From the NCBI GenBank assembly GCA_964568455.1, contig CAZMPJ010000009.1:306-64305 (forward strand): 64,000 nucleotides of DNA, read 5' to 3'. Under the pieces are notes generated by a model. That model saw only the letters and a program-made list of their open reading frames with translations, ran no database searches and was not told the DNA's origin. Position 1 is the first letter of the stretch. Every line of letters begins with the position of its first letter. The translations under genes and the position numbers were made by a program. Below are positions 14,899 to 53,503 of this stretch, piece by piece. Source of the stretch: an uncultured bacterium (GTDB lineage: Bacteria > Margulisbacteria > WOR-1 > O2-12-FULL-45-9).

Positions 14899-14972
14899 CG
14901 GGGTGTAGCTTAGCTTGGCAGAGCGCTACGTTCGGGACGTAGAGGCCGCTGGTTCGAATCCAGTCACCCCGA
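14899..14972 (+). tRNA. tRNA-Pro (anticodon CGG)
   Basis: Manually folded cloverleaf: acceptor CGGGGTG/CACCCCG, anticodon stem CTACG/CGTAG, loop TTCGGGA, T-arm GCTGG-TTCGAAT-CCAGT, discriminator A; 74 nt. No encoded CCA. Confidence 0.85.
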
Positions 14973-15016
14973 TTCTCTTGACTAGAATCCACTTGCTTGT
15001 TATACTCAATTACGAG

Positions 15017-17071: not shown

Positions 17072-17110
17072 GTAGTGGGTTCTATTCCCACCTTGGTTTG
17101 AATAAAATGA

Positions 17111-17200
17111 TTCAATGACGAAATTCGAATGACGAAAGAATGATCAATTGATCAATTTTAAAATTAACTCGTCATTCGTCATTGATAAATTTGTCATTAG
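17111..17200. repeat. ~90-bp palindromic repeat element, copy 2 (reverse complement of copy 1)
   Basis: CAATGACGAAATTCGAATGACGAAAGAATGATCAATTGAT...TCGTCATTCGTCATTGATAAATTTGTCATTAG aligns to the reverse complement of 14197..14285 with only a few mismatches. Confidence 0.85.
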
Positions 17201-19996: not shown

Positions 19997-20005
19997 AAAT
20001 TCATT

Positions 20006-20081
20006 CGGGACGTGGCCCAGCTTGGACTAAGGCGCTACCTCGGGGAGGTAGAGATCGCTGGTTCGAATCCAGTCGTCCCGA
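20006..20081 (+). tRNA. tRNA-Pro (anticodon GGG)
   Basis: Acceptor CGGGACG/CGTCCCG, anticodon stem CTACC/GGTAG, loop TCGGGGA, T-arm GCTGG-TTCGAAT-CCAGT, discriminator A; 76 nt. Confidence 0.85.
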
Positions 20082-20090
20082 TTTTTAATT

Positions 20091-23008: not shown

Positions 23009-25244
<2,236 letters not shown>

Positions 25245-25306
25245 AAGTGTATAATTTGACCTAAAGGTGACATTTTTTGTAACCTTTGGGGCATAAGTAT
25301 ATAAAT

Positions 25307-25891
25307 ATGAATAAATCAGACATTTTTAACATTCTTAAATCAGACAAAACCGTGTTTTCTTTTAAGGACATTTTATTAAACAGCGAAGAAGCTGATGAAG
25401 AGCAACTGCGGCGCCGGATTAGTTATTATGTTAGGGAAGGGCAGCTTTATGGTATTCGCAGGGGGATTTATGCCAAAGATAAGAAGTATAATAAATTAGA
25501 ATTGGCGACAAAAATATTAGTGCCGTCTTATGTTAGTTTTGAAACAGTTTTGGCTGAAGCAGGAATAACCTTTCAGCATTACAGTCAAATTTTTGTGGCA
25601 TCTTATAAAAGCAGAGAGATTATTTGTGATGGCCAGGCTTATGTGTTTAAAAAAATTAAAGATGAAATATTAACTAATAATGTTGGCGTGGAAGATAAAA
25701 ACAATTATTCTATTGCCACAAAAGAAAGGGCGTTTCTTGATGTGGCCTATTTAAATAAAGATTATCACTTTGATAATTTAAGGCCTTTGGATTGGGATTT
25801 GGTTTTTGATATTTTACCTATTTATAATAATAAGCGCATGACAAAAACAGTAAATCGATATTATAAAGCGTTTAAGAAGGGCAAAGAGTAA
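25307..25891 (+). CDS. AbiEi-family antitoxin-like transcriptional regulator (type IV TA)
   Basis: N-terminal wHTH-like segment '...LRRRISYYVREGQLYGIRRGIY' is typical of AbiEi antitoxins. It lies immediately upstream of an AbiEii-like nucleotidyltransferase. Confidence 0.6.
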   Translation: MNKSDIFNILKSDKTVFSFKDILLNSEEADEEQLRRRISYYVREGQLYGIRRGIYAKDKKYNKLELATKILVPSYVSFETVLAEAGITFQHYSQIFVASYKSREIICDGQAYVFKKIKDEILTNNVGVEDKNNYSIATKERAFLDVAYLNKDYHFDNLRPLDWDLVFDILPIYNNKRMTKTVNRYYKAFKKGKE

Positions 25892-25895
25892 TTTT

Positions 25896-26600
25896 ATGAT
25901 ATTAGATACGGCAATACACAAAAATATGCTTTTGCGAATTTTAAAAGATATTTTTTCGGATGACAGTGTTGCGCCTTTTTTGGGTTTTAAGGGAGGGACT
26001 GCCGCCTATTTCTTTTATGGTCTTGATCGCTTTTCCGTTGATCTTGATTTTGATTTGCTTGATAACGCTAAAGAAAAACATGTTTTTGAGCAAATCAAAA
26101 AAATATTATCTGTTTATGGGAAATTAAAAGAGGCGGAAGCAAAAAGATATAATTTGTTTTATTTGCTTTCTTATCAGGATAAAGTTGAAGGTGCCCGCAA
26201 TATTAAGGTAGAAATTAACCGCCGGGATTTTGGGTCTAAATATGAGGTCAAGTCCCATCTTGGCATTTCCATGAAAGTAATGGTTAAGGAAGACATGGCG
26301 GCGCATAAAATGGTGGCAATGTTGGAGAGGATTGGCAAGACCAATCGTGATATTTATGATGTTTGTTTTTTTCTTAAAAATAATTGGCCAATAAATAAGA
26401 AAATTATAGAACTGCGTACTAAGGTGTCTTTTAAACAATTTTTACAAAAATGTATTCATTCGCTTGAGAAAATCAGCGATCGCAGCATATTAGCCGGTAT
26501 TGGTGAGTTGTTAAATGCTAAGCAAAAAGCCTGGGTCAAGTCAAAATTAAGAGCGGAGACTATTTTTTCGCTTAAATTGCTTTTAGATAATGAAAAATGA
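25896..26600 (+). CDS. AbiEii/AbiGii-family nucleotidyltransferase toxin (DUF1814)
   Basis: 'LGFKGGTAAYFFYGLDRFSVDLDFDL' matches the nucleotidyltransferase core ('GGTAL..Y...R.S.DLDF') of the AbiEii family. Confidence 0.7.
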   Translation: MILDTAIHKNMLLRILKDIFSDDSVAPFLGFKGGTAAYFFYGLDRFSVDLDFDLLDNAKEKHVFEQIKKILSVYGKLKEAEAKRYNLFYLLSYQDKVEGARNIKVEINRRDFGSKYEVKSHLGISMKVMVKEDMAAHKMVAMLERIGKTNRDIYDVCFFLKNNWPINKKIIELRTKVSFKQFLQKCIHSLEKISDRSILAGIGELLNAKQKAWVKSKLRAETIFSLKLLLDNEK

Positions 26601-26631
26601 TGGGGAGTTTGGGAAGGTGGGGATTATTTAG
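26591..26631. repeat. 41-bp perfect direct repeat, copy A (TGAAAAATGATGGGGAGTTTGGGAAGGTGGGGATTATTTAG)
   Basis: Identical to 31761..31801. It contains the stop codons of AbiEii (+ strand) and of the minus-strand 738-aa ORF. Its core ATGATGGGGAGTTTGGG matches the 3' end of the EndoQ-fragment copy at 30386..30415. Confidence 0.9.
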
Positions 26632-29600
26632 CGCTTTAGGTCTATTTTAGGGCCAGGGATAGGCTCATAAACTTTATCTTGAGGGCTAGAAGGTCTTTCT
26701 TCTGGAAGAACAACCTCTGTAGTAGGCGAAACTTCTCTTATAAAGCATCCGCTAGGAGGCATTCCGCTCATCCCAGCATCAGGATGACAACCACGTTTTA
26801 AAATTCTTCTTTTGACTACTTTTTCTTGTGTTGCATTGCCCACAATTTCTAATGCCTCACCGGTGCTGCTTGTTTCACTTAATTTTTGAAGAGTTCTTAG
26901 ATCGACAGTAATTTTTACTTGTTCCCCAATGTATTCATTCCAATGATCATAATTAATGTTTTCTATGCCAGCCTTAGCTTCTCGATTAACCCAAAGGATA
27001 AGTATTTTCTTTTCAAAACCGGCAGCTAATAAATTGGAGGCATTATCTTCAATGACTTGTAAATGAAAATCAATCTCCTCTGCTATTTTATTGCGCTCAG
27101 CCTCTGTTTTCGCTTCAATGTATTTATCAAAAAGAACATTAAGTTGTAAATAGGCGTTTAGGATGTTTGTTTTAAGGGTGTCAACTTGGGTTGAATTATC
27201 TGTAGAAATGTTCATAATTGGAAAATCGTAAAAAGCTTTGTCTTCGGATTTTATTTCTATCTTTGTTCCTTTTAAATGAGCTATTTGCATTTTATATGAA
27301 GTGATAAAGCTTGGATCATATTGAGCAGCTTCGTAGTAGACAACTAGTCTCTCCATGTAGCTAACCAACTCTTTAATTAATGCTTTGTATTTAGTACTAT
27401 CTTTTTTTGCTTTTCCTAGTTTTATTTTAGTTGCAAGAACTTTGTCTCTTAATTCCAGCACTTTTTTAGCACGCTTGATTTCTGTTTGTTTTTGAGCATT
27501 AAAAGTTGCAGGGTCTTCTATTAATGATAAAAGATATACACCTTCATAGAAATCGCCAACTACCTTAATACTTTGATCTTCATTTACTTTAATGATGGCT
27601 TTGCCAGTTCTATTTTGTAACATTTCGTTTGCTCTGTTGTGCAAATAGATTGTTAAATCTTTAGGAGAGTATTTTTTTAGTTTTGCTAGAGCAGTGATTT
27701 GTACTCCTAAAGTTAGTTTTAGCATTGGATCTTCGGTTTCTAGCCACTGTTTATATTGAGTTAGTATTAATTGAGCCTCTCCTTCGTAAAACATTTTTGC
27801 TGTATGATAGCTTTCAAGTTTTGCATCAATTTGTTCTTTGATTTTTTCTCTCTTGTGTTGTAAGCCTGAAATTACTCCTTTGTTGGCAGTTAACATTGAT
27901 TCAAGTATTACTTTTTGAGACTTAAGGTCAGCTAGAATTGCCTCTGCAGTAAGGATGTCTCCTTGGCTGTAAGCAAGCTGGGCTTCCATAAGCGCTTTTT
28001 CTGCTTTTTCATTGTAAGCTTCAATTTTATCAGTTGCTTTTTTTTGTAAGTCTAACATCTGTTGGGTGAGATTGTCATATTCAGCAATAAGCCCATCTAC
28101 TTGGCTAGAAGTATTTTCATATTCTTTCTTGGTTTCTATAATTTCAGCCCGGTTAGTTTTGACCCTTTCTAATAAGGCAGGCTTTAGATTTTCTCTGAAT
28201 GTTTTTCGAATATAACTATTACGATGATTTAGATAATATTGACCGCCAATTACAACGACAAATTCATTATGTTTAATGTCTGAATCATTAATGAATTTTG
28301 CCCAAACTTTTTCAATATTTTCGTTTTTACCTGAAGCCAGATAGGCTTGATAGTAAACACTGTTTTTATTAATTATGTATGTGTCAGTTTTTTTGTCTTT
28401 TACCACTAATCCAAGATTGATATCCATGTCTGATGCTTTTATTTTTTTCATTGCCAGTAGCTCATATAATCTAGGCATAGCGTAAGTGAAATAAAACAGT
28501 TGTTGAGCCCGGGCCTGTTTAGCTTGTTTTGATTGCTTTTTGATAAAGTTTAGGCCTGAACCTTTGTAATGAATTTCTGGCAGGCTTAATTTTGTGTGTT
28601 TGAGCAGCCACTTAGCAAACCTATAGGCTTTGTCTTTCTTTATAGTTCCTTCGGGCTTGAAATATCCTGCAAAAGCCTTGTTTATATCTGCGACCCTGTC
28701 AAAACTAGCCAAAGCAGGATGCCAGCCTTTTTCTTGTAGCTCTTTTGTTGTAAGAGGTTTAGCGCCAACGGGGTGAATTACTCCGTGTTTAAGATAACCA
28801 GATAGATCTCCCATATCATTTGGGTTTACTGTTAGTATATGCATAATCTGTTCCGGTAATTTCCCCTAAAATCTTTTTGGCTGTTTTTTGTGAGCCATCA
28901 TCTATTTTGGCAATTACGTCTTTGCCGGAAATTGTAGTCTTGTCTCCCATCCATTTTTTAGCTACTTTTTTGGCGTCAGCCGCGATTATCTTATTGGTAT
29001 GAGCATAAGTTTTAATTACATGAGCGCGGTATTCGGCACTGGCGCCATGAGAAACGCGATCAATGTGGCGCTCAAATGCTCTGTTTAAATCATCCCAGTT
29101 AATGGATTCATCGCCTTCGCTATTAATAAACATGCCGCGCGTGCTGGCCCAGTTATAAAAAGCCCGACTTAGGCCCAGTGTTTCCGCTTCCTCACGCGAA
29201 ATTTCGCCATCTTCCCACATTTCTTGATAAACTTTGTATCCATCTCCACTTAACCCCATATCAGTAAATCTATGCCATTGATGATCAACTACTAAGTCAA
29301 CCTCATCTACTGTGCCGTTTTCTGGGGTCTTAACTTCCAATTGATTGCCATCAAGTTCAATTAAATAGCCTTTATAGCCTTCTGATAAAATTTTGTAACT
29401 GCCATTATCCTGTCTTTCAACCAGCATATAGCGGGTTTGTTCTGTGCCCTCAACTTCTTCCTTAAAACTAATGATGCGTTGGTTTTTAGGAAGATTTTTG
29501 GAGATGGCTAATTTTAATTTGGGATCGGAAAGCACATCAAAGTCATCATGTTTAAAAATAGTTCTATCTGTAGTGAGTAGAGCAGGATTTGTTTGAGCTG

Positions 29601-29913
29601 TTTGGATTGCAACTTGAGCTAAAACTTCTGGATCATCCAAATAAACCAATATTTCGCCGGATTGATAATTTTTGTCTCCTATTGAAATTGTTTCCGAGAA
29701 ACTTGTTGAATGAGCATTTGCAATAGCATTTATTTCGCCAACAGTTAAATTTGATATGCTATCTACAAAACCTTGTTTTTTATCCTCTATTTCTGTTAAC
29801 CTTGTTCTAATAGGATCAATGCGATCTTTGAATTCATCTTTGATTTCCTGTTCAGACGCACATTCACCACAAAAATTAGGCCGTGAAGTATGTGTTTTTG
29901 ATACAGAGATGAA
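26628..29913 (-). pseudogene. Degraded paralog of the 959-aa coiled-coil protein: 5'-truncated and split by a frameshift into 277-aa and 738-aa ORFs
   Basis: The 277-aa ORF (28816..29649, TTG start) and the 738-aa ORF (26628..28844) overlap by 29 bp in different frames. Together they are collinear with residues ~100-959 of the 50624..53503 protein (e.g. 'RIISFKEEVEGTEQTRYMLVERQDNGSYKIL' versus 'RIITFTEKVDKKEVTRVILVERQDDGTYKVL'). The frame stays open and homologous upstream of the TTG ('DKKQGFVDSISNLTVGEINA' versus 'GKEQNFIDNIDSISGKEWEANIN') until it meets the EndoQ fragment; no start codon is present. Confidence 0.7.
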
Positions 29914-30415
29914 TTATAAGGCCATGTTTGAAGCAATTAAAACTAAAGATAAATCAAAGTTCCTCTATACGGTTGAGTTTTATCCGGAAGAGGGCAAATA
30001 CCATTATGACGGCCATCGCAAATGTAATGTTTCTTGGAAGCCTAAGCAAACTAAGGCAAATAAAGAAATTTGTTCTGTTTGCGGCAAGAAGGTTACGGTG
30101 GGGGTTATGAGTCGGGTGGATGATTTGGCTGATAGGGAAGAGGGCGTTGTGCCGCAAAATGCTATTCCCTTTAAAAGCATGATTCCTTTGCAAGAGATTA
30201 TTGCTGAAGTAAGGAAAAGAGGAGTTAATACTAAAGGCGTTCAAGAAGAGTATTTTAAGTTGATTGGACAATTTGGTTCAGAATTCAAAATTTTACTGGA
30301 TACACCGATTGCTGATCTGCCCGGCGATATTGGGGGGGCGGTAGAAAAGGTTAGAGCTGGGAAGGTTAAGATTGAGCCGGGGTATGATGGGGAGTTTGGG
30401 GTGGTGGGAATTTAA
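29847..30415 (+). pseudogene. Duplicated 3' fragment (C-terminal ~190 codons) of the EndoQ-like gene
   Basis: About 88% nucleotide identity to 24669..25244, starting at CCTGTTCAGACGCACATTCACC. It has no N-terminal PHP domain or own start. It ends 'GYDGEFGVVGI*' versus 'GYDGEFGRLDIGG*' in the full gene. Confidence 0.85.
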
Positions 30416-31689
30416 TCTTGCTGCCACTTCCAATAAGGGATAAATTTGATTTCATGGCCGTGAAAAGATTCTTGTTTTTCATAATCAAAAGTAATAACCA
30501 AAAGTTGTTCGCATTTTAATTCTTTGCCTGCTTCAATAAGGGCTTTTAATTCGCGAATTTTGATTTTTTCGTTGCCGATTTCGTAACAAGCTTGAACAAG
30601 GGATTCTATTTTGAGTCCTTTTTTTAAAACAAAGTCTACTTCTTTTTTGTTTCTGGTTTTGTAATAAAACAGGCTCTGGTTGGGATGGTATCCTTGGCGG
30701 AGCAGTTTGATAAACACGGCATTCTCAAAAAATTTGCCTATGTTGGAAGTAAATTGGAAGGCTTTTGCCGTGGCAAAGCCGTTATCCGCCAAATAAAGCT
30801 TTTTGGGGGAACGGATTTGTTCTTTTACTTTTAATGAGTATCGGTTGAGGCTGAAGAACAAATAAGTTTCTTCCAGATAATAAAGATATTTTTGTATGGT
30901 GTTTGTGCTGTTGAAATTAAGTGATTTTCTTAAGCGATTAAAAGTATATTCCGAGCAAAAGTTTGATATTAGATAGAGGGCAAGTTCGTATATTTTTTGC
31001 GGAAATCTAATTTTGTATCTTCTTACGATATCTTTTAGGAGTATTGCATCAAGCAGTGTTTCCAGATACATTTTTAGTTCTATATCTTTAGTCGTTATTT
31101 CCGGATATCCGCCGTTTTTAATATAAGAGCGCAATAGGTTTAACAACTCTCCTTTTTTTTCTGGAGAAAGGAAAGAATTTGATTCAATAACCATATTTTT
31201 TGCTCTTAAAAATTCTTGAAAACTAAAGGGTAGTATCTCAATGGGAATATACCTTCCGGTTAACGCGGTGGCCAATTCTTTGCTAAGGAGCTTGGCGTTA
31301 GAGCCGCTTATAACCAGGTTGTAGCCGCGGCGATGGAGCTTGTTGATAAAGTGCTCCCAGTTTTTAAGGTTTTGGATTTCATCAAAAAAGATCCACTTTG
31401 CCTTAGGATAAACTTCAAAAAGGCCCTGTACTATTTCGTCGTAGTTGGTGATTTTTAATAGGTTTTCATCTTCAAAATTGATATAAGCAAAATCCTTATC
31501 CTTAAGCAGTAAAAACGAAAAGACCGATTTGCCGGATCGGCGCGGACCGGTAATGACTTTAATTAAATCGGATTTAACATGGGGTTTGGCAGAGAGGAGC
31601 TGGTCGCGAAAGATATACTCTTTGGCAAGTATTCTTTCTTTTTCCTGTTTATGTTGTTGAATTATGTTATTATTCATATTAAATAGCAC
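30412..31689 (-). CDS. AAA+ ATPase of the AAA_14/DUF4143 family
   Basis: Walker A 'GPRRSGKS', Walker B-like 'IFFDEIQ', and a C-terminal DUF4143-type region; 425 aa. Confidence 0.75.
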   Translation of the reverse strand: MLFNMNNNIIQQHKQEKERILAKEYIFRDQLLSAKPHVKSDLIKVITGPRRSGKSVFSFLLLKDKDFAYINFEDENLLKITNYDEIVQGLFEVYPKAKWIFFDEIQNLKNWEHFINKLHRRGYNLVISGSNAKLLSKELATALTGRYIPIEILPFSFQEFLRAKNMVIESNSFLSPEKKGELLNLLRSYIKNGGYPEITTKDIELKMYLETLLDAILLKDIVRRYKIRFPQKIYELALYLISNFCSEYTFNRLRKSLNFNSTNTIQKYLYYLEETYLFFSLNRYSLKVKEQIRSPKKLYLADNGFATAKAFQFTSNIGKFFENAVFIKLLRQGYHPNQSLFYYKTRNKKEVDFVLKKGLKIESLVQACYEIGNEKIKIRELKALIEAGKELKCEQLLVITFDYEKQESFHGHEIKFIPYWKWQQD

Positions 31690-31760: not shown

Positions 31761-31801
31761 TGAAAAATGATGGGGAGTTTGGGAAGGTGGGGATTATTTA
31801 G
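31761..31801. repeat. 41-bp perfect direct repeat, copy B
   Basis: Identical to 26591..26631. It contains the stop codon of the 5,408-aa ORF. Confidence 0.9.
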
Positions 31802-34800
31802 TGCTCAATGCATTCGCCTCTTTTTTCTTCTTCCTGCATAAGTAATAGCTTAGAAGCAGTGACCCAATCTAAAACGTCTTTGTTGGTATAAAAACGTGCT
31901 GGTTTTTTGTCACAGTTTTCACAAGGAATTATTCCTGCGTTTAAATAAATTGCTGCCCATTTGGCAAAATCGTCAGGAATTAAGTCAGGGTGCAATATAT
32001 TTCTTTCCCCGACTTTAGTATATATGCCAGAAAGATCCAACAATTGTCGGGCGGTAGGTCTTTGATTATGAGGAATGTTGAGTAGATCACATAATTTTCT
32101 TCTTTCTTCAAACAAAGGTTTTAATAAATGAGCCCGATAATTTTTAAGCACAGTATCGATTGTTACTTCTGGCGCGCATTTATTACTATGTTCTACTAGA
32201 GATTTAACTAGTTCTAAAGACTCAATATATTTATTGTTATTATCTAAATATTGCTTGAATTCAGTTTTACTTTTGTTAATTTTTGTTTTAAATTGATTTA
32301 TTACAATTGTTTGGATGTAAGATGGATTAATTTCTTCTGGTCCATTGATAGGGACAAGGATAGGCTCTTCCATGCCTCCAATTTTAATAAATAAAGTTCC
32401 CTGACCAGGAACAACTTCCTGATAAGCTACTATAACAGAAACAATTGGTTCTTTGTCTTTAGAGACTAAATAATATACACCACGTTCTTCCCCAGTGATT
32501 ATTTCAAGACTTTCAAGTTCTTTTTCTAATTCTTCTAAGCTCTTTATTTTAGCGGTTATTTTATCTTTGGTTTCTTCTGCTTTGGCTAATTTATCTGATA
32601 AATCTTTAAGAGTTTCAATTCCTTGATTCTTGGTAAAGTCTCTTATGGCAGCTATGTGATTATCAACAGCTTTTTCTTGATCATTAGAAAAAAGCTTATC
32701 AAGCTTTGCTTCGTAATATTTTAAGAGTAAGTCTGGTATAGCGGCATTAAAGCTTGGATATGTTTCTTGTATTTTTTGCCATAGCTCAAAGTAAAGTTCT
32801 AATGGTTTTTGTTGTGGCTTTTCGTGTTTTGAGCCTTTTCTAAAATAAGTTAAACCTTGCATAATTGAACGAACTGTTTTTTTCCTTCTACTGTGAATTA
32901 ATCGGGCATCAGCTTGAGTTAAAGCGCCTCCATTTGTTCCGCCAACTGAATAACCTTTGATTTCTCCGTTAGCTGGTCCATTTAAGCCCATTGTATTAGC
33001 TTCTTCTTCGCTGAGAATTCGCACTGGAAAACCATCAACGTCAATTACATCTATACCAATTTCTCCTGTTTCATGGTCTTTAATATAAGGGATCAGGAAG
33101 GTGCCAAAATATTCATGATAAGCACGAACTATTTCTTGCATTTCCTCTGGTGAAGCATCTTCTAAGGATTTAACCTTGCCATTAAGAGTTAAAGTCTTTA
33201 CTGCTTCAGATTTAGGGTTAATATAACCAAGCTTTGCTAAAGTAAAAATAAGCTCTATCATTAGTAATGGAGAAGTCCAAAATTGAGCTGGGCTAAGAAT
33301 AATATCTTTTTTATCTTTAATTAGGCGACCCAATGATTTGCTTGCTCCCAAAGCTCTAATTGCCATTGTTTTAATGCGTGGTTCATGAATATATTTTTCT
33401 GCTATTTTAAGAGCTTCTGGGTCATATTGATTCCAGGGAATCCCAGCTTGTAATTCAGCTTCCACTAAGAAAGTTACCCAGCACACTAATGCAGCTACGA
33501 CTAAACTTGCTCCTAGTGTTTCTGGTGCGGTAGCAGCAGAGGCACCTAAAAATGTTTCATAAGCAGCTGCTCCATCTAGGGTTGTCATGAGCGTTCCGCC
33601 TGCCATTAACATGGGGTAGGTCACTTTAGTCAGAATAACAATATCTATGAGTGTTGCTGTTGTATCTAGAGCCCAAGCAGTAGCGGTTCCTGGTTTTACT
33701 GCGCCATTTTCACTTAATAAAGTACTATGCAATAATGTGGAAGTAGGGCTCATTGCTACAGCAAAAGGCTTTAAGCCTTGAGCCACAAAGGTAATAGATT
33801 TGCCAAGACCAGTGTCTTTATATTCACCCCAGAATTCTTCTCCCATTTCCCCAGCTAATTCAGCAGCAACCATAGCAATTAACAAGGGCAGATGTTTGGC
33901 AAATTTTACTTTATCAACCATTCTAAGCATAACTGGGCTACCTTGTAAGTATTTCATGGTGAAGATTAGAGCTCCTAAACTGGTCACAGAGCCGAAAGCA
34001 GCATGGCCTTCTTCTCCTGGTTTTGCCACTGCAATTCCTTTAGCAACATCAATTAACATTACTCTATGAATAGCTTGACCTTCACTAATGCCAGCGGTAT
34101 ACATAAACATACCCCGCTTTGCGCCAAAAACACCCCAGTGAAGCATTCCTTGTCCAGCTGCAGTTTGTATTTCATCAGCAGAAGGCATGCCTTTCCCTGA
34201 TAACAGTGAAGCAGCTATTTTAGCTAATGGATCAGCAACCGCACCTAGCAACATTTCTCTAGCGGGAGAATAAGGGCTACTAAAAACTGGGTGTTGTTTG
34301 ATTCTTTTAAACCTACCACCATTTCCACTGCCCTTGCCAAATACTCTGCGTAAAAATTTAGTATAAGTTGGCTTTAAGCCCAGTCCTTCCCAACGACTGA
34401 TAGCTTCTTCAATAAACATCCCTTCCATGGTAGCTTTAACTTCTGCTCTTCCTTCGGGCGTTTCCATTAATTGAGCTTCAGTAAAAACGCCATGATATTT
34501 TTCTAATACTCTTTCTGTAGCACGTTTTTTCAAACCTTCAATGTCAGCTAATTTATCTATTCTTTCCTTAGCTCTTTTTTGCCAGTTACCGCCTTTGGCC
34601 TTTTCTTCGGCTACGATTTGAGCTTTTTCTAAAGTGCTCATAGTTTCAATTAACTGCAGCGCTTTAGTTTGATCCTTTTTAGAAACGTTAGCTAGTAATG
34701 GGATTTCCAGTTTTAATTCTAAACTCTTTCCTTTGTCAGCTTCACCGAGTAAATATTGAATAGCAAAATCAATATTTAAGTGAGGATTGTTTAATTGTAA

Positions 34801-37800
34801 TTGTTTGGCTAATTCTATTAAGGCTTTTTGTCCATCCATAAAAGCGGCTTTATCTGCAGCAGAACCTCTTAGCCCGTCAATTTCACTTTTTTCTACTTTG
34901 GCTAATATTTCCTCTGCTCTTTGAGCATTAATCACTTCAACGCTATATTCTTTGCCACCTTTTCTTTCAATTTTTACTTCTATTGCTCCATTGGCTCTTA
35001 AAAGATTCATTAGCGCGATATCGCCAGCTTTAACTCGATCAACTAATCTAAGATCAACACCTTCTAAAAACATGAAAGTGGTTTCAGTCATTATTTTTGT
35101 GCCTTTAGTAGGTTTTTTTGCTTCGACTTCAGCAGCTTCTGTTAAAGCCTTTTCTTGGATTGCCCTAGATTTTAATTTGCTCATTTCTGTTAAAGTGTCT
35201 ACTTGACTAATACTGCCTGAAACAAGTCTATTTCTTAGGTGTTTTAATTTGAAAATATCTTGATTTGTTTCAGTCGTAGCTGGTTGAGCTTCTAGATTAT
35301 TTAGTCTAATATCAACAGCTAACTTAGCCAATTCCTGAAAGGTAATATTGCTGCTGCTTTTTTCTTTTGCCTCAAGCAATATTCTTCTTTCTTGAGGAGT
35401 TAAATCAAGAGCACTAGAAACTTCTATCAGGCTTTTTAATTCACTAATTCTTGCTTCCCAAGTGGTAAGGTCTGCTTCAGTAACTTTGTGTTTTTTCATG
35501 CGGCTAGCACCGTGGCGGCTGTGTCTAAAGTATTTTATGCGAGCTTCTAAAGAAAGTATTTGTTTTGCTAGTTCAGTAGGAGTATCAATAAAAGTAGTGT
35601 CAGCATTTTCTAGATAATTTAAGAAGTTTTCATGAGCTTTTTTGTCGTTTTGGGCATCAAGATTTACTTTTTTAGCCCCAATTTGTTTAACTTGGTCAAC
35701 TTGGCTGGTTTCAAAGCCCAAATCAATGGCAAAATAATTGCGATAAGCATCTTTGTTGGATCTGCCAAATCTGAACATTTGCCTCCACAGAACTTCAACA
35801 TCTGCTTTTAAGAGCTTGCCCTCAAACAGACCTTTTAATGTTTCAAAGTCAACAATGTTGTGATCAAAATAATAGCCTAATCTTAATAGTTTGCGCCCTT
35901 CAATGAATTTGGCAGGATCCACACCTAGTTTTTCTCTTAAAATCTTTTCAGCTGCCAGATAATCTTTATGTTTTATGGCTTTTTTGCCATTGTAACGAGC
36001 TAGTTTTCTTAAAAGCTTAACTTCTTTTCCGGTTAATTCAGCAAATCTTTCTACTGGCACATCTTTTAAGCAATCTAGTGAATCAAATTTTAACAAGGTA
36101 TTCTTGTTGCGATTTGCTCTTTCAAAAGCAGCACTATCTAAATGAGTAGTTGGTGCATCTTTGTCTGGTTCGATTGCATCAACTTTTCTTTGGCGAGTTT
36201 TTACTAAATCAGTTACTTGTAAAATTAAAGCAGAAACAGGCTCAGCTACAGCGTGAGAAGCGTTAGAGCCAAGTTTTATAAAACTGGCTTTGCCTTGGCT
36301 GTTAAATACTAGATGGCCAACTGTTTTTGTTTTGGCATCATAACACCAGAATTTACCACTGCTGTCAGCCTTGTAAGTATAAACCTCTCCTTTGATTTTA
36401 ACTTTTCCGCTCAAAGGAATTTTTGCTTTGGCAACCTTTACTTTTATTTCGGTTTCAGTTTGTGTCTTGGTTTCTCTTTGAGCATTTTCAAGATCAATTT
36501 CAGTAATACTAATATCATGGCGCAGGTGATGGGCGCTAAAACCAGGGAACATTCGTTTCCAAAGTTTTTCTAAAAGAGAGGCGGTGGCTCTTTTACCAAG
36601 ATTAGCCATTTCTTTTTTCTTAAAATCATCACTTTGATTATCAAGTTGGAGGTTTTGAATAGCATTCATGCCATCAACAACTAAAGCGTAGTGTTCGCCA
36701 ACCAGTTCTCGCAATTCTAACTCTCTTTGACTAAGTTTTCTTACTTGTCCGCCTTCATCGCGATATTCAAATTCGCGATTGCTAAAGCTGTCCAATGACC
36801 CTTCAGTTGTAGTAAGTTTAAAAGAATTAAACAGTTTTTCACCTAGAGCTTTGATTAAGGCTGCGCGGCTAGGAATTTTGCGGCTGATAGTTACTTTGCG
36901 GCCTTTTGTGGTTTCATTTAACTTTCGTTCTAATTCAGTTAATTTAGTTTCGTCTTTTAAGTCTGCATCAGTTTCAATGCCAACTTCTTTAAGTAATAAA
37001 TCAAGGTATGATTCAATGGCTAAGCGGTAAAAAGTGTTAAAGTCAGACAGATTAGCAGATAAATCACTGATAGTTGCTAAGCTGTCATATTTTAAAGCAG
37101 CTCGATCAAATAAGCGTTGCATAGATTCAAAATTTCGCTGATATTCTCTGCGGAAAGCTTCATTAACAAAGTAATTAATAGCTTTGTTGTTTGGATCATA
37201 TAAGTTTACTGGTTTGTCTTCTCCGCCGGCAGCTTCTGCGGCAGCTTTTAGAGCGGGTTTTTCTATTTTTTCGTTTAATTGGTTGAAAACTGCATCTCCA
37301 TCGCCAGTATAAACACTGGAGGTTCCTGGAAAATAGTTTCGAGCACCACGACCAATACTTTGCAGAATCTTGGCTTCGGTTTTAGCGCCAGCTGAAATTA
37401 CATGTAAGCCGCCTTCAGTAAAATTAGTTTCAGCGCCACCTTTAACTAAACTGGCTTCACCAGCACGGGCAATAGCTTCGGTAATACCAGCTTGTACTTG
37501 AATATCAAGACCGCGAGAGAAGTACGTAACAGTAACTGTACCAGCATGTCCAGCTTGAGTGATTTTTGCTTCTCGAATGATTTCTTGAGCGCTGCCTTTA
37601 ACTCGTTGACCTTTTTCATAAGCAACTAGTTTGCCTCTTTTCACTTTAAATTCATAATTTCCTAGTTTGTAAGAACCGTGTTGTCTGACTAGCCCTTTAA
37701 GCCGTTCGATTTCTGCTTTGTTTTCACCATAATCTTCACCTGTAAAGGTTTGAATTAAGACGCCTTCTCGTTGGCCTAATTCTTCAACATATTCTTTAAA

Positions 37801-40800
37801 TTGCTCTGGTGTTTCAAGTACAATAAAGACAGGGCGATTGCTTTTGGCAGTGGCTACAGCTTCTTCAGCAGCAGCTTGTCTGCGGGCGGTTGCGTCAAAG
37901 ATAAAAGTGCGGTCTCTGCGCACAACACTTAATTTTTTACCTTGTAATTTAGGATGTTTAGGTAGAATTTCTTGTTTCCAAATTTGTTTTGCTTCGGCAG
38001 CAGAAAAACCATAAACGTAGATTTTGCCAACGATGTCTTTAGTGTGGGCTCCAGTGTCTTTCAACTCTAGTGTTTCTTCTGCGGCTAAAGCTAGTTGTTC
38101 CAATTTGGCTGTGACTTTAGCTTTGTCTGTGCCAAAATGAAGTTCTGCTCTTGGGATATAAGGAGGAATTTCAACTACTCTAAAGCCCAAGTCAGCATAA
38201 GCATGGGTAATTACTTCGTGAGAAGCTGCCAAAGAGCCAGATAAACCAACTACTTTTCTGTGATGCAGAAAGACTTTTCTAATATCAATATCAGCCACAG
38301 TCATGGTTTCTCGTTCAATTGGCAGGCCGTAGACTAGTCTTAAAGCTTCATCCAAACCATTACCAAAACGCTTATCAGGTGATTCATCGCCACTTTCTTC
38401 TAATGGCACAATTGATTTAGCAGTTACTATCTTTATGGTTCTTTCTTCGCCATCAACAATAATTGTTTTTTCTTTTTCTTTTTTACCTTTGACCTTGAAT
38501 TTAGTTTGATGAGATAAACGTTTTTCTACTCCTTCATATTCTTTTTCCCGGTAAAGCTGATAAGCTTGTTTTAAAGCTTCAAATTGCATTTGAGCAAAAG
38601 CATCGTAACCACCGTATTTTTTCATGCCTTGTTCAATAAACCTAATTCCTGCTTCAGTGTATTCACCAGTTTTTTGATTAAAGCAAAGAGGATTATTAAT
38701 AACTTGTTGGAAGACTTTGTGGGCGTGTTTCCATTTGTTTTTGGTTCTGGCCATTGTAACAGTGTCAACCCACATGTTTTGAGTTTCACCTTTAGGTCCT
38801 GCAATAGTGTAGGTGGTTTCTGCTGTTTCAATACCATATAAATCCCATTCATCAGCAATTACAGCGCCTCGAGGCACTTTTACTTCGCCGCCACCAAGGT
38901 CAAAAGCATGACTGGATACATCAACAACTACTACATTACAAGTGTCATACACTCTTTGTCGTTCTTGAGGAGTATATGATTTGCCAGTATCAGGGTTTTT
39001 GCTATATAAGAAACCTACTTTAAGCCCAGCTCCGGTTAGTAATCTCATTAAAGGATCTTTGGCCATCTGCTCAACTAGCGGATCACCGGTAGTAAAGATA
39101 TATACTTTGTTGTAATGGGCAGATAACTGTACAGCAGTTAAAACGTCAATTAAAGTTTTACCACCACCAGTTTCTAAGTGGATTAAATGATTGCCTGGGG
39201 CAGCAAGAATTTCAGTTGATTGTTGCTGGACTAAACGTACAGTTTTGCCTGGTTTTTTGATTTCTCCCTTTTTGTTTCTTTCTTCAGTAGCAAATCTTGC
39301 AGCAGCAATAGTCCATTTACTCATTTCCAGAGAACCAATTTCTCCGTTGCGATATTGGTTTGCTGCAGTTCTATAATCAGTCCAGAATTCAGCAGGTTTG
39401 TCTTGGTAGCTATCTGCTAATTCAATGCCTTGTTGTCTAGCTGCAAGACTTGAAGGTTTCACTTCATCTAAATGTCTTTGATTCTCTGTGGCGTCAAGTG
39501 GTTGGTTGGTAAGGGTGGGTAGTTTAGTTGTTGATTCTGGCTTAGTTTGTCCATTAGTTCTAGCTTTTTCCTTAAGGTCTTTAAGAATTTGAGCATTATA
39601 ATCTTTTGGTAGAACTAGCCAAATTTTGCAATCAGCATCAGTGGCGCCATAAGGTCGTTCAACAATATAGCCTGGTTCAGCGCCTTCTATTACTCTAACT
39701 TTAGTTATTTCTACCCAGTTGCCGTTCCATTCAATAAAAAAGCCTTTTCTAGCGGGATCATAGTGCAGGATTTCAGCTAATTGACCTTCGCCTTTTTTAG
39801 CTTTTTCAACTTCTCTGGTTAAAGATTTATTGCGGCTGGCTTCTCCAGCACCAGTATTTTTAAGCTTACCATTGCTAAGGCCAATTTCTGCTAGGGTGTC
39901 AGTTGGATTAATATCATGGCTATTAAAAGCTTTGTGTTGTTTTTCTTTGTCAGACAAAGCACGTTTGGTAGCATTAATAGCGCCTTTAATACCAAATCTT
40001 ATAGTTAGATCAACTGTATGGTCTGCGATACCAAAAGCATAGTCCATTGGCCAAGTCCAAACTCTAGCCAAGCTCCTACCTAAGCGACCACCTTCGTGTA
40101 GGGCGGTTCTGGCTTCATGATCAACTACTAACCACGGAGAAATTAAAGTGCCTTTAAAAAATTGGCCAATTCCTCTTCTCCACTTTGAACCAGTTGTTTC
40201 TTTGCCTGTTTCTGAATCAAGTTTTCTATTGAGGGTAGCGTTGTTGATTGATTCTATGACAAAACGGATTAAACCAGCTTCTCTAATGCGGCTGTGAGTA
40301 GTAGAATCAAAAGGTTTGCCACTGAAATCACGGAATAAATCTTGCAGAGCACTAATTGGCCTAGAAAGTGCACCATGTTTCGCAAACCTTCTCATAAAGT
40401 TGGGTGCTTTTTTATGCAGATATTGAAGCATTTTTCTGCCTAGAGGGAATTTATTTAATGCTCCAGCAACTTGAGCATCAAAAGCCATGGTATTAGACCA
40501 AATGCTTCTTTGGCCGCCCATCATAGTCAAATAGTTTATGGCATACCAAATAGCCAAGGCATTACCAAAGTGGCCTTGTTTTACTTCTTCAAAAAATTCG
40601 CGGTACCAGATAAAAGCCATGCTGCGCCAGAAAAAGATATGGAATAAGTATTTGGTCCCACTTAATTTATCCCAACCTTCACCATTGATAAGTTGATCAA
40701 TAACTTCTTTACTTAGATCAACATAGATCCACTTGTACATGAAAAAGCGAAACATTACTTGTTGAAAGATCAATTTCATGGCAACTTCGCCACCAGTGTT

Positions 40801-50623: not shown

Positions 50624-53503
50624 TTATTTGTATGTCTTGAGCATGCTTGTTACGAATTTTATGGCTTTATCAAGTGTTTTAACCTTACTTTTAGGATCAA
50701 GCCTATCTGGTAAAGTTTTATTGCGTTTCTTTTTGTATTGTTTATTAAGAATTTTGGAGAATCTTTGCGACCACTTATCTAATCCTTTAAAGAACTTCTT
50801 ATTGTTTTTGTATTTATTTAATATAATAGCCAATTGCATAGCCATGTTTTCAGCCTCTGCCGGGCTAATTTTCTGTTTTTTGTCTCCAATTTCTTTTCTC
50901 TTGTACATTAATTGTTCAAGCATTTTTCCGGTTACATCTAGATCATAATCTAATTCAGAGCAACCTCTTTTATGCTTCATTTTGGCTTTTGTTATTTGTA
51001 TGATTTGATCTTTTGTAATTGCTTCTTTTGTTATTGTGAGCTCTGTTTCTCCTGTTTTTTTGCAATATTTAGCGAATAATCTTGTGGCGAGATTGCCAGA
51101 ATATAATCCTCCTGATATGAGGCTTAAAATAGCGGACTGTATTATTTGTTTAGCTCTGGTTTGCAGATAAGGAGGAAGAGAACCATAAGCATCCAGCAGC
51201 GCAAAGGATACGGTTTCCAATTCAGTATAATCCATAGTTATACTTAGTAATTTTATGTATTCTAATTGTATTCTTGCTTTTTGTTCGTTATTTGCTGTTT
51301 CTAGAGACTTTTTTAATCTTGCCGCATAAGTTATTGATGCTTCTACCTTTTTTCCTACAGTTGACTTGGACTCTTTCATCACTTTCTCATATTCTTCTTG
51401 GCCCGTTAAAGGCGGTGCAGCGAGCTCTATTAAGCTATCTATTTCGGCCTGCACTTGTTCTAATTTGATTTCTGTGTCTAATTCTGTCTTGCCTTTAGAT
51501 CTAAGCTGTTCATTTAGTTTTTCTGTTTTTTCTTTATAATTAGTTTTTACTCTTTGGGCAAAAGTCTCTCTATTCTTGATTAAATAAGTTCTTATTTCTA
51601 ATGCCAAAGCAGCTTCGTCTTTTTTTGTTCTATCAATGTTATCAAAAAATTCTTTTGTTGCTTGCATGAATAGTCCAGCTGCTTGATCTTTTAATTTGTC
51701 ATTTTGGCTATATTTTTGTTCCACTATTAATGCTTGTTTAGCTGCTTCTTTATATTGTTTTTCTTTTAATAATGTGCCTATTAATGATTGGCGTAGCTGG
51801 AAGGCTTTTTTGGTACTGCTTATGCCCGTATGTTGTTCTTCGAAAACTTTAATTTGTGCAATAGCTTCTTCATATCTTTCTTCTTTCAGGAGTTTTAAAA
51901 TTAAATTGTATCTTATTGTTTCATGTTTGTGATTTTTTAGATAATCCGTGGCTTGTTTAATAAACTCGTCAGGGTTTGATTTTGCTAAGCTGTTTATTTC
52001 ATATTCCTTTTTAAGATCAGAACCAGAAGTTTTTTCAGATTCACTCTTTTCCTCCACTTCCTCCCCCTTCAACCATGCTAAAAACTTATCCGTATCTTTA
52101 AGCTGTTTTGGGCTGTCAAGCTTGCTAGTATCCACCCAATAGTGCTCCAGAGAGGCACCTTTATCAAAGTATTTTTGCGGTAATTGAGCCAAAAATCCCA
52201 TGGTGAAGACAAAGTCCTGGACTTGGCCAGCCTTAGAAGGGGCGAGGTGGACCTGATATTTGTCTTCTAGGATAAGCAGAAAAGATTCGCGAATCGATAA
52301 TTCGTCGTCAATTAGCACGTGTTCAGCCTTAAACTCAAAATCCTTGGTATATGTAAGCCCAAGTAAATTACAAATAACCCTGGTAGCTGTTTCTTTATTT
52401 TCAGAACCAACTTTAGAAAGTAGGGCAGTAGCGCTAATTTCTTTTTTGCCAGCCATTAGTTTTTTGGTGGTTTTTGAAGTATAAACATAAACCCAGCGCT
52501 TGCTTTGCAGAGCAACTTTGAATAAAGTTGCATCATTTATGTTTAAGCCCCTTGAAACCATGTCAAGATGGGCTGCCATATCAACAAAGTCGTCTCCAGT
52601 AATTGCGTTGTCTCCATTTGAAATAACCCCGCCCATACTAAAGACGTTATAAGCTTGGTCAGAGGCTGCTGGATCAATCTTTTTAAACTCTTCTCTGGTA
52701 ATTAATCCATCAGCAAAAATTTGCTGGTAAAGCTCAAGACTCATGCCGGTTCTTTGAAAATGTGCCCAATAACCGTCGACAACCAGTTCTGCTTCATCAC
52801 CATTAACTTCTAGCTTTTCGCCGTCAACCTCAACTTTATACTTTTCAAAACCTTTGGACAGGACTTTATATGTGCCATCATCTTGTCTTTCAACTAAAAT
52901 TACTCTAGTAACTTCTTTTTTATCTACTTTTTCTGTAAAGGTGATAATGCGTTGGTTAGGTTCTAAGTTAGAACTTACTTTTGCAGAATGTTTTTTTAAT
53001 AGGCTTAATCCTTCCCCATTAATTACTTGAGGAGCGGCCTTAATGATAGCAATTATCATTTTCGTGCCAATTTCTGGATCGCGAAAATAAGCAGCTAAAT
53101 CATCAAAAGTATATTCTATATCATTAATAATTATTGATTCTTTCTTATCTGGATTAATGTTTGCTTCCCATTCTTTCCCACTAATCGAATCAATATTGTC
53201 GATAAAATTTTGTTCTTTCCCTGTTGATTTTATTAATGAGTCAGCTTCACGCCCAAGTTTAGCGAATTTTTTCTCAAGATCAGATCCTCTAATTTGTGTT
53301 AAGCAGATTTGATAGGCATCATTAGCATTGGCTCTTGCTTGGTTTAGATTTGCTAAAGTAGTTGAGGTGGGGGTTGTCTTATAAGCCTTGGTTGCTTTTT
53401 CAAGAGCACCAAGTCGAGTTTTTAATTTTTTTACTTGAGGACTCTCATCAGCAGGTCTAGCTGTGCTACGAGCTGACGATGCTCCTCCAACAGGCCTTAC
53501 CAT
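50624..53503 (-). CDS. Large coiled-coil/helical-repeat protein (959 aa), intact paralog of the 26628..29913 pseudogene
   Basis: ATG start with RBS GGAGGAAAC. The N-terminal ~400 aa are shared with the degraded paralog. The centre has a helical repeat resembling the giant protein's module ('YLKNHKHETIRYNLILKLLKEERYEEAIAQIKVFEE' versus 'AYLKIHKEEYEAKGVNVDFYITYFEIQGLLQDNKYAEAKDKIESLL'). Lys-rich C-terminus. Confidence 0.8.
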   Translation of the reverse strand: MVRPVGGASSARSTARPADESPQVKKLKTRLGALEKATKAYKTTPTSTTLANLNQARANANDAYQICLTQIRGSDLEKKFAKLGREADSLIKSTGKEQNFIDNIDSISGKEWEANINPDKKESIIINDIEYTFDDLAAYFRDPEIGTKMIIAIIKAAPQVINGEGLSLLKKHSAKVSSNLEPNQRIITFTEKVDKKEVTRVILVERQDDGTYKVLSKGFEKYKVEVDGEKLEVNGDEAELVVDGYWAHFQRTGMSLELYQQIFADGLITREEFKKIDPAASDQAYNVFSMGGVISNGDNAITGDDFVDMAAHLDMVSRGLNINDATLFKVALQSKRWVYVYTSKTTKKLMAGKKEISATALLSKVGSENKETATRVICNLLGLTYTKDFEFKAEHVLIDDELSIRESFLLILEDKYQVHLAPSKAGQVQDFVFTMGFLAQLPQKYFDKGASLEHYWVDTSKLDSPKQLKDTDKFLAWLKGEEVEEKSESEKTSGSDLKKEYEINSLAKSNPDEFIKQATDYLKNHKHETIRYNLILKLLKEERYEEAIAQIKVFEEQHTGISSTKKAFQLRQSLIGTLLKEKQYKEAAKQALIVEQKYSQNDKLKDQAAGLFMQATKEFFDNIDRTKKDEAALALEIRTYLIKNRETFAQRVKTNYKEKTEKLNEQLRSKGKTELDTEIKLEQVQAEIDSLIELAAPPLTGQEEYEKVMKESKSTVGKKVEASITYAARLKKSLETANNEQKARIQLEYIKLLSITMDYTELETVSFALLDAYGSLPPYLQTRAKQIIQSAILSLISGGLYSGNLATRLFAKYCKKTGETELTITKEAITKDQIIQITKAKMKHKRGCSELDYDLDVTGKMLEQLMYKRKEIGDKKQKISPAEAENMAMQLAIILNKYKNNKKFFKGLDKWSQRFSKILNKQYKKKRNKTLPDRLDPKSKVKTLDKAIKFVTSMLKTYK

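What the first reader, a model, noticed from the sequence alone, without database searches (positions are those of the whole stretch)
26628..29913. Paralog pair: intact 959-aa gene versus a 5'-truncated, frameshifted copy; both share the giant protein's helical repeat
The 277-aa and 738-aa minus-strand ORFs overlap by 29 bp (28816-28844) in different frames. Concatenated, they align along the 959-aa protein of 50624-53503. The frame upstream of the 277-aa ORF's TTG remains open and homologous but has no start codon before it meets the EndoQ fragment. This copy is therefore a decaying duplicate, unless the frameshift is a sequencing error. The 959-aa protein also contains at least one copy of the helical module that is repeated at least nine times in the 5,408-aa protein ('YLKNHKHETIRYNLILKLLKEERYEEAIAQIKVFEE'). 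This links the large proteins of the island evolutionarily and hints that they interact or share a scaffold.
Basis: seen in the sequence. Interest (0 to 1): 0.6.

Follow-up and report, generated by a model that had tools for sequence, protein, structure and literature searches.

The report
Recombination-truncated remnant of orphan large gene
The two overlapping reading frames are the leftover of a divergent version of the 959-residue gene, beheaded by a recombination event that also duplicated half of a neighbouring repair gene and brought in an anti-phage toxin-antitoxin pair; it is an ordinary gene remnant in a variable island, not a fresh duplicate.

Summary
The sequence facts hold. ORFs 26628-28844 (738 aa) and 28816-29649 (277 aa) overlap by 29 bp in different frames. 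The 277-aa frame stays open to 29841 and then abuts a duplicated EndoQ-like 3' fragment at 29843. Only the upstream part is homologous to the 959-aa protein (residues 96-385, 33% identity, E 9e-42). The 738-aa part does not align with it. The frame break is identical in 10 checked contigs from JGI, ENA and Logan assemblies, so it is not a chance sequencing error. The copy is not a recent duplicate of the 959-aa gene. Its nearest relative (54%) is a 1032-aa protein from another metagenome that sits at the locus corresponding to the 959-aa gene. The two EndoQ-like 3' copies differ with dN/dS 0.085, so they diverged as working genes in separate lineages. Best reading: recombination between diverged genomes, with one end joined at a 2-5 nt microhomology. 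It placed EndoQ-3'/AbiEi-AbiEii/45-bp element/truncated gene next to EndoQ-3'/PDC-S01/45-bp element/giant gene. Whether the frame break is a point frameshift, a second junction or a natural gene boundary is unresolved. The proposed link to the giant protein's helical repeat is weak (7-9 bits). Ordinary, low interest.

The parts
28816..29842 (-). Upstream piece of the remnant. The conserved core of the family is open from the junction and corresponds to residues ~176-520 of P0002 and 96-385 of the 959-aa protein. The listed 277-aa ORF (TTG at 29649) is its downstream part.
   Evidence: (core HMM 245 bits, HMM positions 1-246 of 321)
26628..28844 (-). Downstream piece, a 738-aa ORF in the +1 frame. 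Its residues 3-216 are homologous to residues 211-421 of P0014, and the rest is an orphan helical sequence.
   Evidence: (E 1e-12 pairwise, 8e-4 library-wide)
28819..28865 (-). Interval within which the reading frame must switch by +1. It is bounded by TAG 28868-28866 in the downstream frame and TGA 28818-28816 in the upstream frame. The longest homopolymer is G4/A3.
   Evidence: identical in 10 independent contigs
29838..29847 (.). Novel junction between the interior of the family gene and the interior of the EndoQ-like gene, with 2-5 nt of shared bases (GGAAAT).
29843..30415 (+). Orphan 3' fragment of an EndoQ-like (TIGR00375/MJ0043) gene, 191 codons with no stops or gaps, 89% aa identity to the full copy.
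   Evidence: (dN/dS 0.085, dS 0.77)
24063..25244 (+). Full-length EndoQ-like gene. Its 3' part, 24666-25222, is the other copy of the 557-bp direct repeat.
25286..26600 (+). AbiEi/AbiEii toxin-antitoxin (abortive infection) pair. It is the cargo between the EndoQ-like 3' end and the 45-bp element in unit 1.
26591..26635 (.). 45-bp element directly 3' of the stop codon of the 738-aa ORF. It is 97.8% identical to the copy behind the giant gene.
31761..31805 (.). Second copy of the 45-bp element, directly 3' of the stop codon of the 5408-aa gene.
30412..31689 (-). AAA_14/DUF4143 ATPase (PADLOC candidate defence gene PDC-S01). It is the cargo between the EndoQ-like 3' fragment and the 45-bp element in unit 2.
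50624..53503 (-). Intact 959-aa family member at the locus shared with P0002 and P0004 (next to the 206-aa gene) and with P0013 (next to the arginine genes).

Best explanation
Region 26628-29842 is the non-functional remnant of a second, strongly divergent version of the 959-aa gene. It derives from an allele or xenologue, not from an in-genome duplication. A recombination event between two diverged genomes of the same lineage joined the interior of that gene (about codon 176) to the interior of an EndoQ-like gene (about codon 202) at a few bases of microhomology.

Both parental arrangements had the same backbone: EndoQ-like gene, a slot with defence cargo, a conserved 45-bp element, then the 3' end of a large minus-strand gene. 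One parent carried AbiEi/AbiEii followed by the family gene. The other carried a PDC-S01 ATPase followed by the 5408-aa gene. The product carries both units in tandem, about 5.17 kb apart. It has one complete EndoQ-like gene, one orphan EndoQ-like 3' fragment, and a family gene without its first ~175 codons, start codon and promoter.

The likely mechanism is homology-facilitated illegitimate recombination: one end anchored by homology and the other joined illegitimately. Integration of a circularised fragment by a crossover within the EndoQ-like gene is an alternative. The likely selected cargo is the defence module, with the gene fragment as a passenger.

Shown: the junction, the repeats, the truncation, the homologies, and that the frame break reproduces across assemblies. 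Inferred: the direction and mechanism of the event, and that the +1 frame break lies in what was once one ORF. All ten full-length relatives are single ORFs of 690-1180 aa, and the P0014 homology to the 738-aa ORF is internal to P0014.
For: Truncation and junction. Alignment to P0002 starts at the very first codon after the junction (P0002 residue ~176-179).

Foreign or allelic origin: the EndoQ-like 3' copies have dS 0.77 and dN/dS 0.085, with no indels or stops. That pattern is expected for two functional genes that diverged apart, not for a live gene and a dead in-situ copy. The remnant is 54% identical to P0002 but 33% identical to the 959-aa protein.

Locus correspondence: the P0002 and P0004 contigs carry a homologue of the 206-aa gene upstream, as the 959-aa gene does. 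L001 207-489 matches window 53813-53562 at 70%. P0013 lies next to OTCase/ArgG at 66% and 75% aa identity.

Parallel units: the 557-bp and 45-bp direct repeats have offsets of 5177 and 5170 bp. The cargo between them is defence-type in both units (AbiE and PDC-S01).

Not an error: the sequence is identical in 10 contigs from JGI, ENA and Logan.

Single-ORF architecture of the family. Homology to P0014 begins at 28853, upstream of the ATG, and is internal in P0014.
Against: No contig with either un-rearranged parental arrangement was found, so donor, recipient and mechanism are inferred from one product.

The near-equal length of the two unrelated cargo segments (1368 and 1361 bp) is unexplained and may be coincidence.

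Both pieces are long intact ORFs in 38% G+C DNA. So either the event is very recent or at least the 738-aa ORF is kept by selection.

The second ATG at 28814 lies one base after the TGA of the 277-aa ORF (TGAtATG), a normal coupled-gene spacing. Several gene callers annotate 277 + 728 aa as adjacent genes.

Continuity of homology across the frame break could not be shown statistically.
Confidence: 0.68

Rival explanations
1. Two genuine cistrons. In the donor lineage the family core and a P0014-like module were already separate genes that overlapped or were translationally coupled. Here they may still be expressed, by read-through from the PDC-S01/giant-gene transcription unit and initiation at TTG 29649 and ATG 28844 or 28814.
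For: Both ORFs are uninterrupted. TGA and the second ATG are one base apart, and some gene callers annotate 277 + 728 aa. The 738-aa part belongs to a different homology group than the family tail. All upstream genes are on the same strand, so read-through is possible.
Against: None of ten full-length relatives ends near 'ITG..Y'; all continue for 400-600 aa in the same frame. The P0014 homology starts upstream of both ATGs and is internal in P0014, preceded by 210 in-frame residues. The upstream piece has in any case lost ~175 codons, its start and its promoter.
Confidence: 0.2
2. The frame break is a second illegitimate junction. A fragment of a P0002-like gene was joined out of frame to a fragment of a P0014-like gene, so the two pieces were never one ORF.
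For: Similarity to P0002 ends and similarity to P0014 begins within the same ~50 nt. The family's conserved MGFLAQ...FLAWLKGEE segment, present in 9 of 10 relatives, is absent. In L006, P0014 sits upstream of OTCase, the position of the 1741-aa gene and not of the family gene.
Against: It requires an extra rearrangement. The family's C-terminal regions are variable anyway. No repeat or microhomology signature was identified at the break.
Confidence: 0.15
3. In-situ tandem duplication of a ~5.2-kb unit followed by divergence and cargo replacement.
For: Two direct repeats with nearly the same offset, 5177 and 5170 bp.
Against: The EndoQ-like fragment evolved under strong purifying selection (dN/dS 0.085), which a dead fragment would not. 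The cargo genes are unrelated and on opposite strands. The remnant shows no similarity to the 3' end of the giant gene.
Confidence: 0.04
4. Sequencing or assembly error, or a programmed +1 ribosomal frameshift, so that the gene body downstream of the truncation is really one ORF.
For: A single +1 shift in a 47-nt interval restores one frame.
Against: The sequence is identical in 10 contigs from three assembly sources. There is no long homopolymer. I saw no stop-codon shift site of the prfB type (CUU UGA C with upstream Shine-Dalgarno, from my own knowledge). The 5' truncation remains whatever happens at the break.
Confidence: 0.04
5. Silent cassette: the promoterless copy is kept as a donor for recombinational replacement of the expressed 959-aa gene, as with pilS, or with Rhs/CdiA orphan modules.
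For: It is a promoterless 5'-truncated copy in the same island with a shared core and a different C-terminal region. The family is hypervariable between close relatives.
Against: There is no DNA-level similarity to the expressed gene that could support homologous recombination. There is only one copy, it carries a frame break, and its junction is explained by the EndoQ-like duplication.
Confidence: 0.05

Closest known systems
Gene remnants left by homology-facilitated illegitimate recombination (described for natural transformation in Acinetobacter and Streptococcus pneumoniae; from my own knowledge, not checked in the papers library)
   Same: There is a stretch of homology on one side (the EndoQ-like gene). 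There is a sharp novel joint with a few bases of microhomology on the other side. Foreign DNA was inserted, part of the anchor gene was duplicated, and a truncated passenger gene was left.
   Different: The mechanism is inferred from a single product. Neither parent was recovered, and a Campbell-type integration of a circularised fragment fits equally well.
Defence-island hotspots with strain-specific cargo between conserved flanks
   Same: Two versions of one slot, bounded by the EndoQ-like 3' end and the 45-bp element, hold different defence genes: AbiEi/AbiEii and PDC-S01.
   Different: Both versions are present in tandem in one genome. No integrase or transposase is present in the 5.2-kb unit.
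Orphan C-terminal modules of polymorphic toxin genes (Rhs, CdiA) and silent pilS-type cassettes
   Same: A 5'-truncated, promoterless copy has a shared conserved region and a different C-terminal part, near a full-length gene.
   Different: There is no high-identity DNA shared with the expressed gene (33% aa, no blastn hit). No toxin or immunity domains were found, there is a single copy, and its frame is broken.
The uncharacterised protein family defined here (959-aa protein, P0002, P0004, P0006, P0007, P0009-P0013)
   Same: The remnant's upstream piece matches the family core at 245 bits. It has the NQRIISF/LVERQ beta domain and the two EF-hand-like 'DG.IT.EEF' and 'GD..IT..DF' motifs.
   Different: It lacks the N-terminal ~175 residues and the conserved MGFLAQ...FLAWLKGEE segment. 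A P0014-like module follows in another frame.

Membership tests
959-aa protein family (orphan family, no Pfam/NCBIfam/PADLOC model) | Conserved core: beta domain with NQRIISF...LVERQ...VVD..W, two EF-hand-like motifs, and AKKLMG...TA..VI.NI.G | tested here: met
   The core HMM scores 245 bits over HMM positions 1-246 of 321. blastp gives E 9e-42 to the 959-aa protein and E 1.6e-104 to P0002.
959-aa protein family (orphan family, no Pfam/NCBIfam/PADLOC model) | Segment F.ATMGFLAQ...Y.VDT...FLAWLKGEE directly after the core, in the same ORF (9 of 10 members) | tested here: not met
   An HMM of this segment gives no positive score in any frame of 26500-29950, nor on the 738-aa ORF.
959-aa protein family (orphan family, no Pfam/NCBIfam/PADLOC model) | Single ORF of 690-1180 aa with a long helical C-terminal region | tested here: not met
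   It is split into 277(+64)-aa and 738-aa frames and lacks ~175 N-terminal codons.
Pseudogene / gene remnant | Loss of 5' end, start codon and promoter relative to intact homologues | tested here: met
   Alignment to P0002 begins at its residue ~176, at the junction. There is no start codon between 29841 and 29649. No strong promoter-like site lies upstream on the minus strand (weak evidence).
Pseudogene / gene remnant | Disrupted reading frame that is real, not an error | tested here: met
   The +1 break lies within 28819-28865 and is identical in 10 contigs from three sources.
Pseudogene / gene remnant | Relaxed selection (dN/dS near 1, accumulating stops) | not testable with these tools
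   All available copies are at least 99.7% identical, with one nonsynonymous difference in L090. There are no internal stops in either piece.
Programmed +1 ribosomal frameshift (prfB type) | Shift-prone codon before a slow or stop codon, plus an upstream stimulatory element | tested here: not met
   The sequence ...AGT AAA CCC AAA TGA TAT... has no re-pairing site for tRNA-Lys and no recognisable stimulator. This was judged by eye against the known motif, from my own knowledge.
Silent-cassette / orphan-module variation systems | High-identity DNA shared with the expressed gene, allowing homologous recombination | tested here: not met
   Self-blastn of the window finds no match between 26628-29842 and 50624-53503 at E 1e-5.
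Site-specific integrative element that restores its target gene's 3' end | Integrase or recombinase within the inserted segment, and short att repeats | tested here: not met
   The segment 24666-29842 holds only the EndoQ-like 3' part, AbiEi, AbiEii and the remnant. The repeat is 557 bp at 86.5% identity, not an att-sized core.
Giant-protein helical repeat module | Significant match to the ~60-aa repeat of residues 142-1285 of the 5408-aa protein | tested here: inconclusive
   [not shown]

The most novel reading that the evidence does not exclude
The truncated copy is not junk. The lineage keeps promoterless alternative versions of a hypervariable partner protein of its giant gene. The 738-aa P0014-like module (or both pieces) is expressed by read-through, or is recruited by recombination to change the specificity of the giant-protein system. 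The EndoQ-like/45-bp backbone would then be a dedicated exchange site for such modules and defence cargo.
Probability: 0.06. Interest if true: 0.6.

Novelty: new member of a known kind. Interest (0 to 1): 0.28.

Why it matters
As a gene remnant it matters little. Its value is as a clean, datable scar. It shows that this uncultured lineage exchanges kilobase segments between diverged relatives at a hotspot that carries defence genes. It also shows that the 959-aa-type gene differs enormously between genomes whose neighbouring EndoQ-like gene is still 89% identical: 33% identity in the core and unrelated tails. That pattern points to rapid turnover of an orphan protein family that sits next to very large genes. 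This is a lead for anyone studying giant-gene loci in uncultured bacteria.

Tried and rejected
(1) 738-aa ORF against the C-terminus of the 959-aa protein, P0002, P0004 and the giant protein by blastp: nothing significant.

(2) HMM of the family's post-core segment against all frames of the region, the 738-aa ORF and P0014: no positive score. My by-eye match of 'RFAKWLLK' to 'FLAWLKGEE' is therefore not supported and was dropped.

(3) The N-terminal 215 residues of P0014 against family members gave only colinear weak hits (E 2-8) at the AKKLMG region. These are not usable.

(4) Self-blastp of the giant protein for repeats found none at 1e-3. The repeats were recovered only by motif search and HMM.

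(5) Word-indexed protein searches returned only near-self hits plus P0002 and P0004.

(6) Genome-contig scan for the family found none. An EndoQ-like scan gave at best 59-61% identity in Omnitrophota and Patescibacteria MAGs, so the taxon was not established.

(7) Metagenome-contig scan with the 45-bp element gave 0 hits. Even the source contig was not found, so that collection evidently lacks it. A family scan recovered only the known P0004 contig.

(8) Viral-contig scans for the family and for the 738-aa ORF found none.

(9) Pfam, NCBIfam, PADLOC and PDB sequence searches on the family gave nothing above threshold.

(11) The apparent extra disruption in L093 is a run of N from scaffolding.

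(12) Downstream large genes in L088 and L089 are not similar to the window's giant protein and lack its repeat.
Full report
**1. The observation**

The ORF listing confirms two minus-strand ORFs: 26628-28844 (738 aa, ATG) and 28816-29649 (277 aa, TTG). They overlap by 29 bp in different frames. Three-frame translation shows that the 277-aa frame stays open upstream to 29841 without any ATG, GTG or TTG. The downstream frame is open only from 28865 (TAG at 28868-28866), and the upstream frame closes at TGA 28818-28816. A single +1 switch inside 28819-28865 would therefore join them.

The extended upstream frame aligns with residues 96-385 of the 959-aa protein (50624-53503): 33% identity over 315 columns, E 9e-42. 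The 738-aa ORF does not align with the rest of that protein. The paralogy is real but covers only the first third of the 'concatenated' product.

**2. The break is not an error**

The 738-aa protein and its near-identical cluster members occur on contigs from JGI, ENA and Logan assemblies. I aligned ten of them (L002, L003, L090-L097). All are at least 99.7% identical to the window and identical across the frame-switch interval. The one apparent extra disruption, in L093, is a run of N. These are the same population, so the break is a fixed feature of that genome.

**3. The family**

An exhaustive phmmer search of 1.84 billion representatives with the joined sequence found only 13 proteins. 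Ten of them form a family: the 959-aa protein, P0002, P0004, P0006, P0007 and P0009-P0013.
- All are single ORFs of 690-1180 aa.
- They share a core: an NQRIISF/LVERQ beta domain, two EF-hand-like motifs, and AKKLMG...NI.G.
- In nine of ten the core is followed by F.ATMGFLAQ...Y.VDT...FLAWLKGEE, and then by 400-600 residues of poorly conserved helical sequence.
- No Pfam, NCBIfam, PADLOC or PDB-sequence match exists.

The remnant's upstream piece matches the core HMM at 245 bits, but only up to HMM position 246 of 321. The conserved segment after 'ITG..Y' is not found in any frame.

**4. The 738-aa part**

Its only relative is P0014, a 600-aa partial protein. Residues 3-216 match P0014 211-421 at 26% identity, with E 1e-12 pairwise and 8e-4 library-wide. 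By tblastn the match starts at 28853, three codons upstream of the ATG. It is internal in P0014, where 210 in-frame residues precede it.

In its contig P0014 lies directly upstream of an OTCase gene, the position that the unrelated 1741-aa gene holds in the window. So a 738-like module normally sits inside a longer ORF. I could not show statistically that the family core continues into it.

Three readings remain:
- one ORF broken by a point frameshift (favoured);
- an out-of-frame junction of two gene fragments;
- two natural cistrons. The second ATG at 28814 lies one base after the TGA, and several gene callers annotate 277 + 728 aa.

**5. Origin of the truncation**

Self-blastn shows a 557-bp direct repeat, 24666-25222 against 29843-30399, at 86.5% identity with no gaps. 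It is the 3' part of the complete EndoQ-like gene (TIGR00375/MJ0043 family) and an orphan fragment.

The left edge of the orphan fragment coincides with the upstream end of the remnant. In minus-strand view, the EndoQ-like homology runs through ...GAACAGGA, and the homology to the P0002 contig starts at GAAATCAAAG. They share 2-5 bases.

The two EndoQ-like 3' copies are 89% identical in protein, with dS 0.77 and dN/dS 0.085. They therefore diverged as functional genes in different lineages and were juxtaposed later. A dead fragment produced in situ would not show this pattern.

A second direct repeat of 45 bp (97.8% identity; the 35-nt pattern I searched, 26597-26631, is identical in both copies) lies immediately 3' of the stop codons of the 738-aa ORF and of the 5408-aa gene. 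Its offset is 5170 bp, against 5177 bp for the EndoQ-like repeat. Between the EndoQ-like 3' end and the 45-bp element, the first unit carries AbiEi/AbiEii and the second a PDC-S01-type AAA_14/DUF4143 ATPase.

The simplest account is that two versions of one variable locus, from diverged relatives, were joined in tandem by one illegitimate joint. The other end was resolved by homology. That means either homology-facilitated illegitimate recombination or integration of a circularised fragment.

**6. Not a duplicate of the 959-aa gene**

The remnant is 54% identical to P0002 and 33% identical to the 959-aa protein.

The P0002 contig carries a homologue of the 206-aa gene divergently upstream. Its DNA matches window 53813-53562 at 70%, which is the upstream region of the 959-aa gene. 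P0004 shows the same neighbour. P0013 lies next to OTCase/ArgG homologues at 66% and 75% identity.

So the 959-aa gene occupies the family's usual locus. The remnant derives from a different version of that locus. The contrast between 89% identity in the EndoQ-like protein and 33% in the family core shows that the family turns over very fast.

**7. The helical module**

The giant protein has a ~60-aa helical repeat between residues 142 and 1285. Six copies score 21-53 bits in leave-one-out tests, and a seventh scores 7.4 bits.

A positional association of family genes with very large genes does exist. P0007 is followed by a 2510-aa gene. The 959-aa gene is followed by the 5408-aa gene after two inserted genes.

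**8. Verdict**

This is a recombination scar. A divergent allele or xenologue of an orphan large-protein gene was 5'-truncated at 29842|29843 and has a broken frame at 28819-28865. It travelled with an AbiE module. It is an ordinary kind of object.

What remains unexplained:
- the exact nature of the frame break;
- the high conservation of the 45-bp element;
- the function of the family.

The taxon was not established. EndoQ-like relatives reach at most 59-61% identity, in Omnitrophota and Patescibacteria MAGs.

Noticed in passing
window 26591-26635 and 31761-31805: A 45-bp element (GAAAAATGATGGGGAGTTTGGGAAGGTGGGGATTATTTAG[C/T]GCT) occurs twice. Each copy starts 5 nt inside the end of a large minus-strand gene (the 738-aa ORF and the 5408-aa gene) and is C-rich on the coding strand. 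At 97.8% identity it is far better conserved than the adjacent EndoQ-like coding repeat (86.5%). Its function is unknown; possibilities are a terminator or rut-like site, a recombination boundary, or gene conversion.
   Followed up: partly
window 24666-25222 and 29843-30399: The 557-bp direct repeat of the EndoQ-like 3' half has dS 0.77 and dN/dS 0.085. The orphan fragment is still a clean open frame of 191 codons.
   Followed up: yes
window 25286-26600, 30412-31689, 49204-50358: Defence-type genes are interspersed in the island. There is an AbiEi/AbiEii pair (PADLOC E 4e-61 and 2e-76) and two AAA_14/DUF4143 ATPases matching the PADLOC candidate system PDC-S01 (E 8e-108 and 3e-60). The two ATPases are only 22% identical to each other.
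   Followed up: partly
L005 4595-4640 (window ~51633-51640): In one ENA scaffold the 'intact' 959-aa gene carries a 20-bp insertion with clustered mismatches and a shorter A-run (5 instead of 7). This splits it into 641-aa and 327-aa ORFs. It is probably a local scaffolding or assembly artefact, since the same project produced the N-run in L093. If real, the gene is also disrupted in some populations.
   Followed up: partly
window 31798-48024 (5408-aa protein): The giant protein has a SecA_DEAD/DEAD-box helicase-like domain at about residues 2940-3265 (Pfam E 1e-11). It also has 6-7 copies of a ~60-aa helical repeat at residues 142-1285. No other Pfam domain was found.
   Followed up: partly
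L006 (P0014 contig) 7-1809 and 2000-2110: A protein with a 738-like module lies directly upstream of an OTCase gene in another metagenome. That is the position of the unrelated 1741-aa gene of the window, which suggests module exchange among the large genes of these islands.
   Followed up: partly
window 14198-14287 and 17110-17199; also 11968-12004 and 14197-14233: A 90-bp inverted repeat (93% identity) brackets a housekeeping block (PlsY, M23 peptidase, bactofilin, TP_methylase). A 37-bp direct repeat shares one of these sites. They are probably intergenic repeat elements.
   Followed up: partly
window 14899-14972 and 20005-20082: There are two tRNA-Pro genes (CGG and GGG anticodons), which explains the 52-bp repeat 14923-14974 / 20032-20083. 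The listed TTG start of ORF 14915-15901 overlaps the first tRNA and is therefore probably wrong.
   Followed up: yes
window 48170-48217 and 50413-50460: A 48-bp direct repeat (83% identity). The first copy spans the 3' end of the 313-aa gene (stop at 48195). The second lies in the intergenic region between the 959-aa gene and the 384-aa ATPase gene, 164-211 nt downstream of the 959-aa gene's stop (50624). Not examined further.
   Followed up: no
[not shown]
   Followed up: partly
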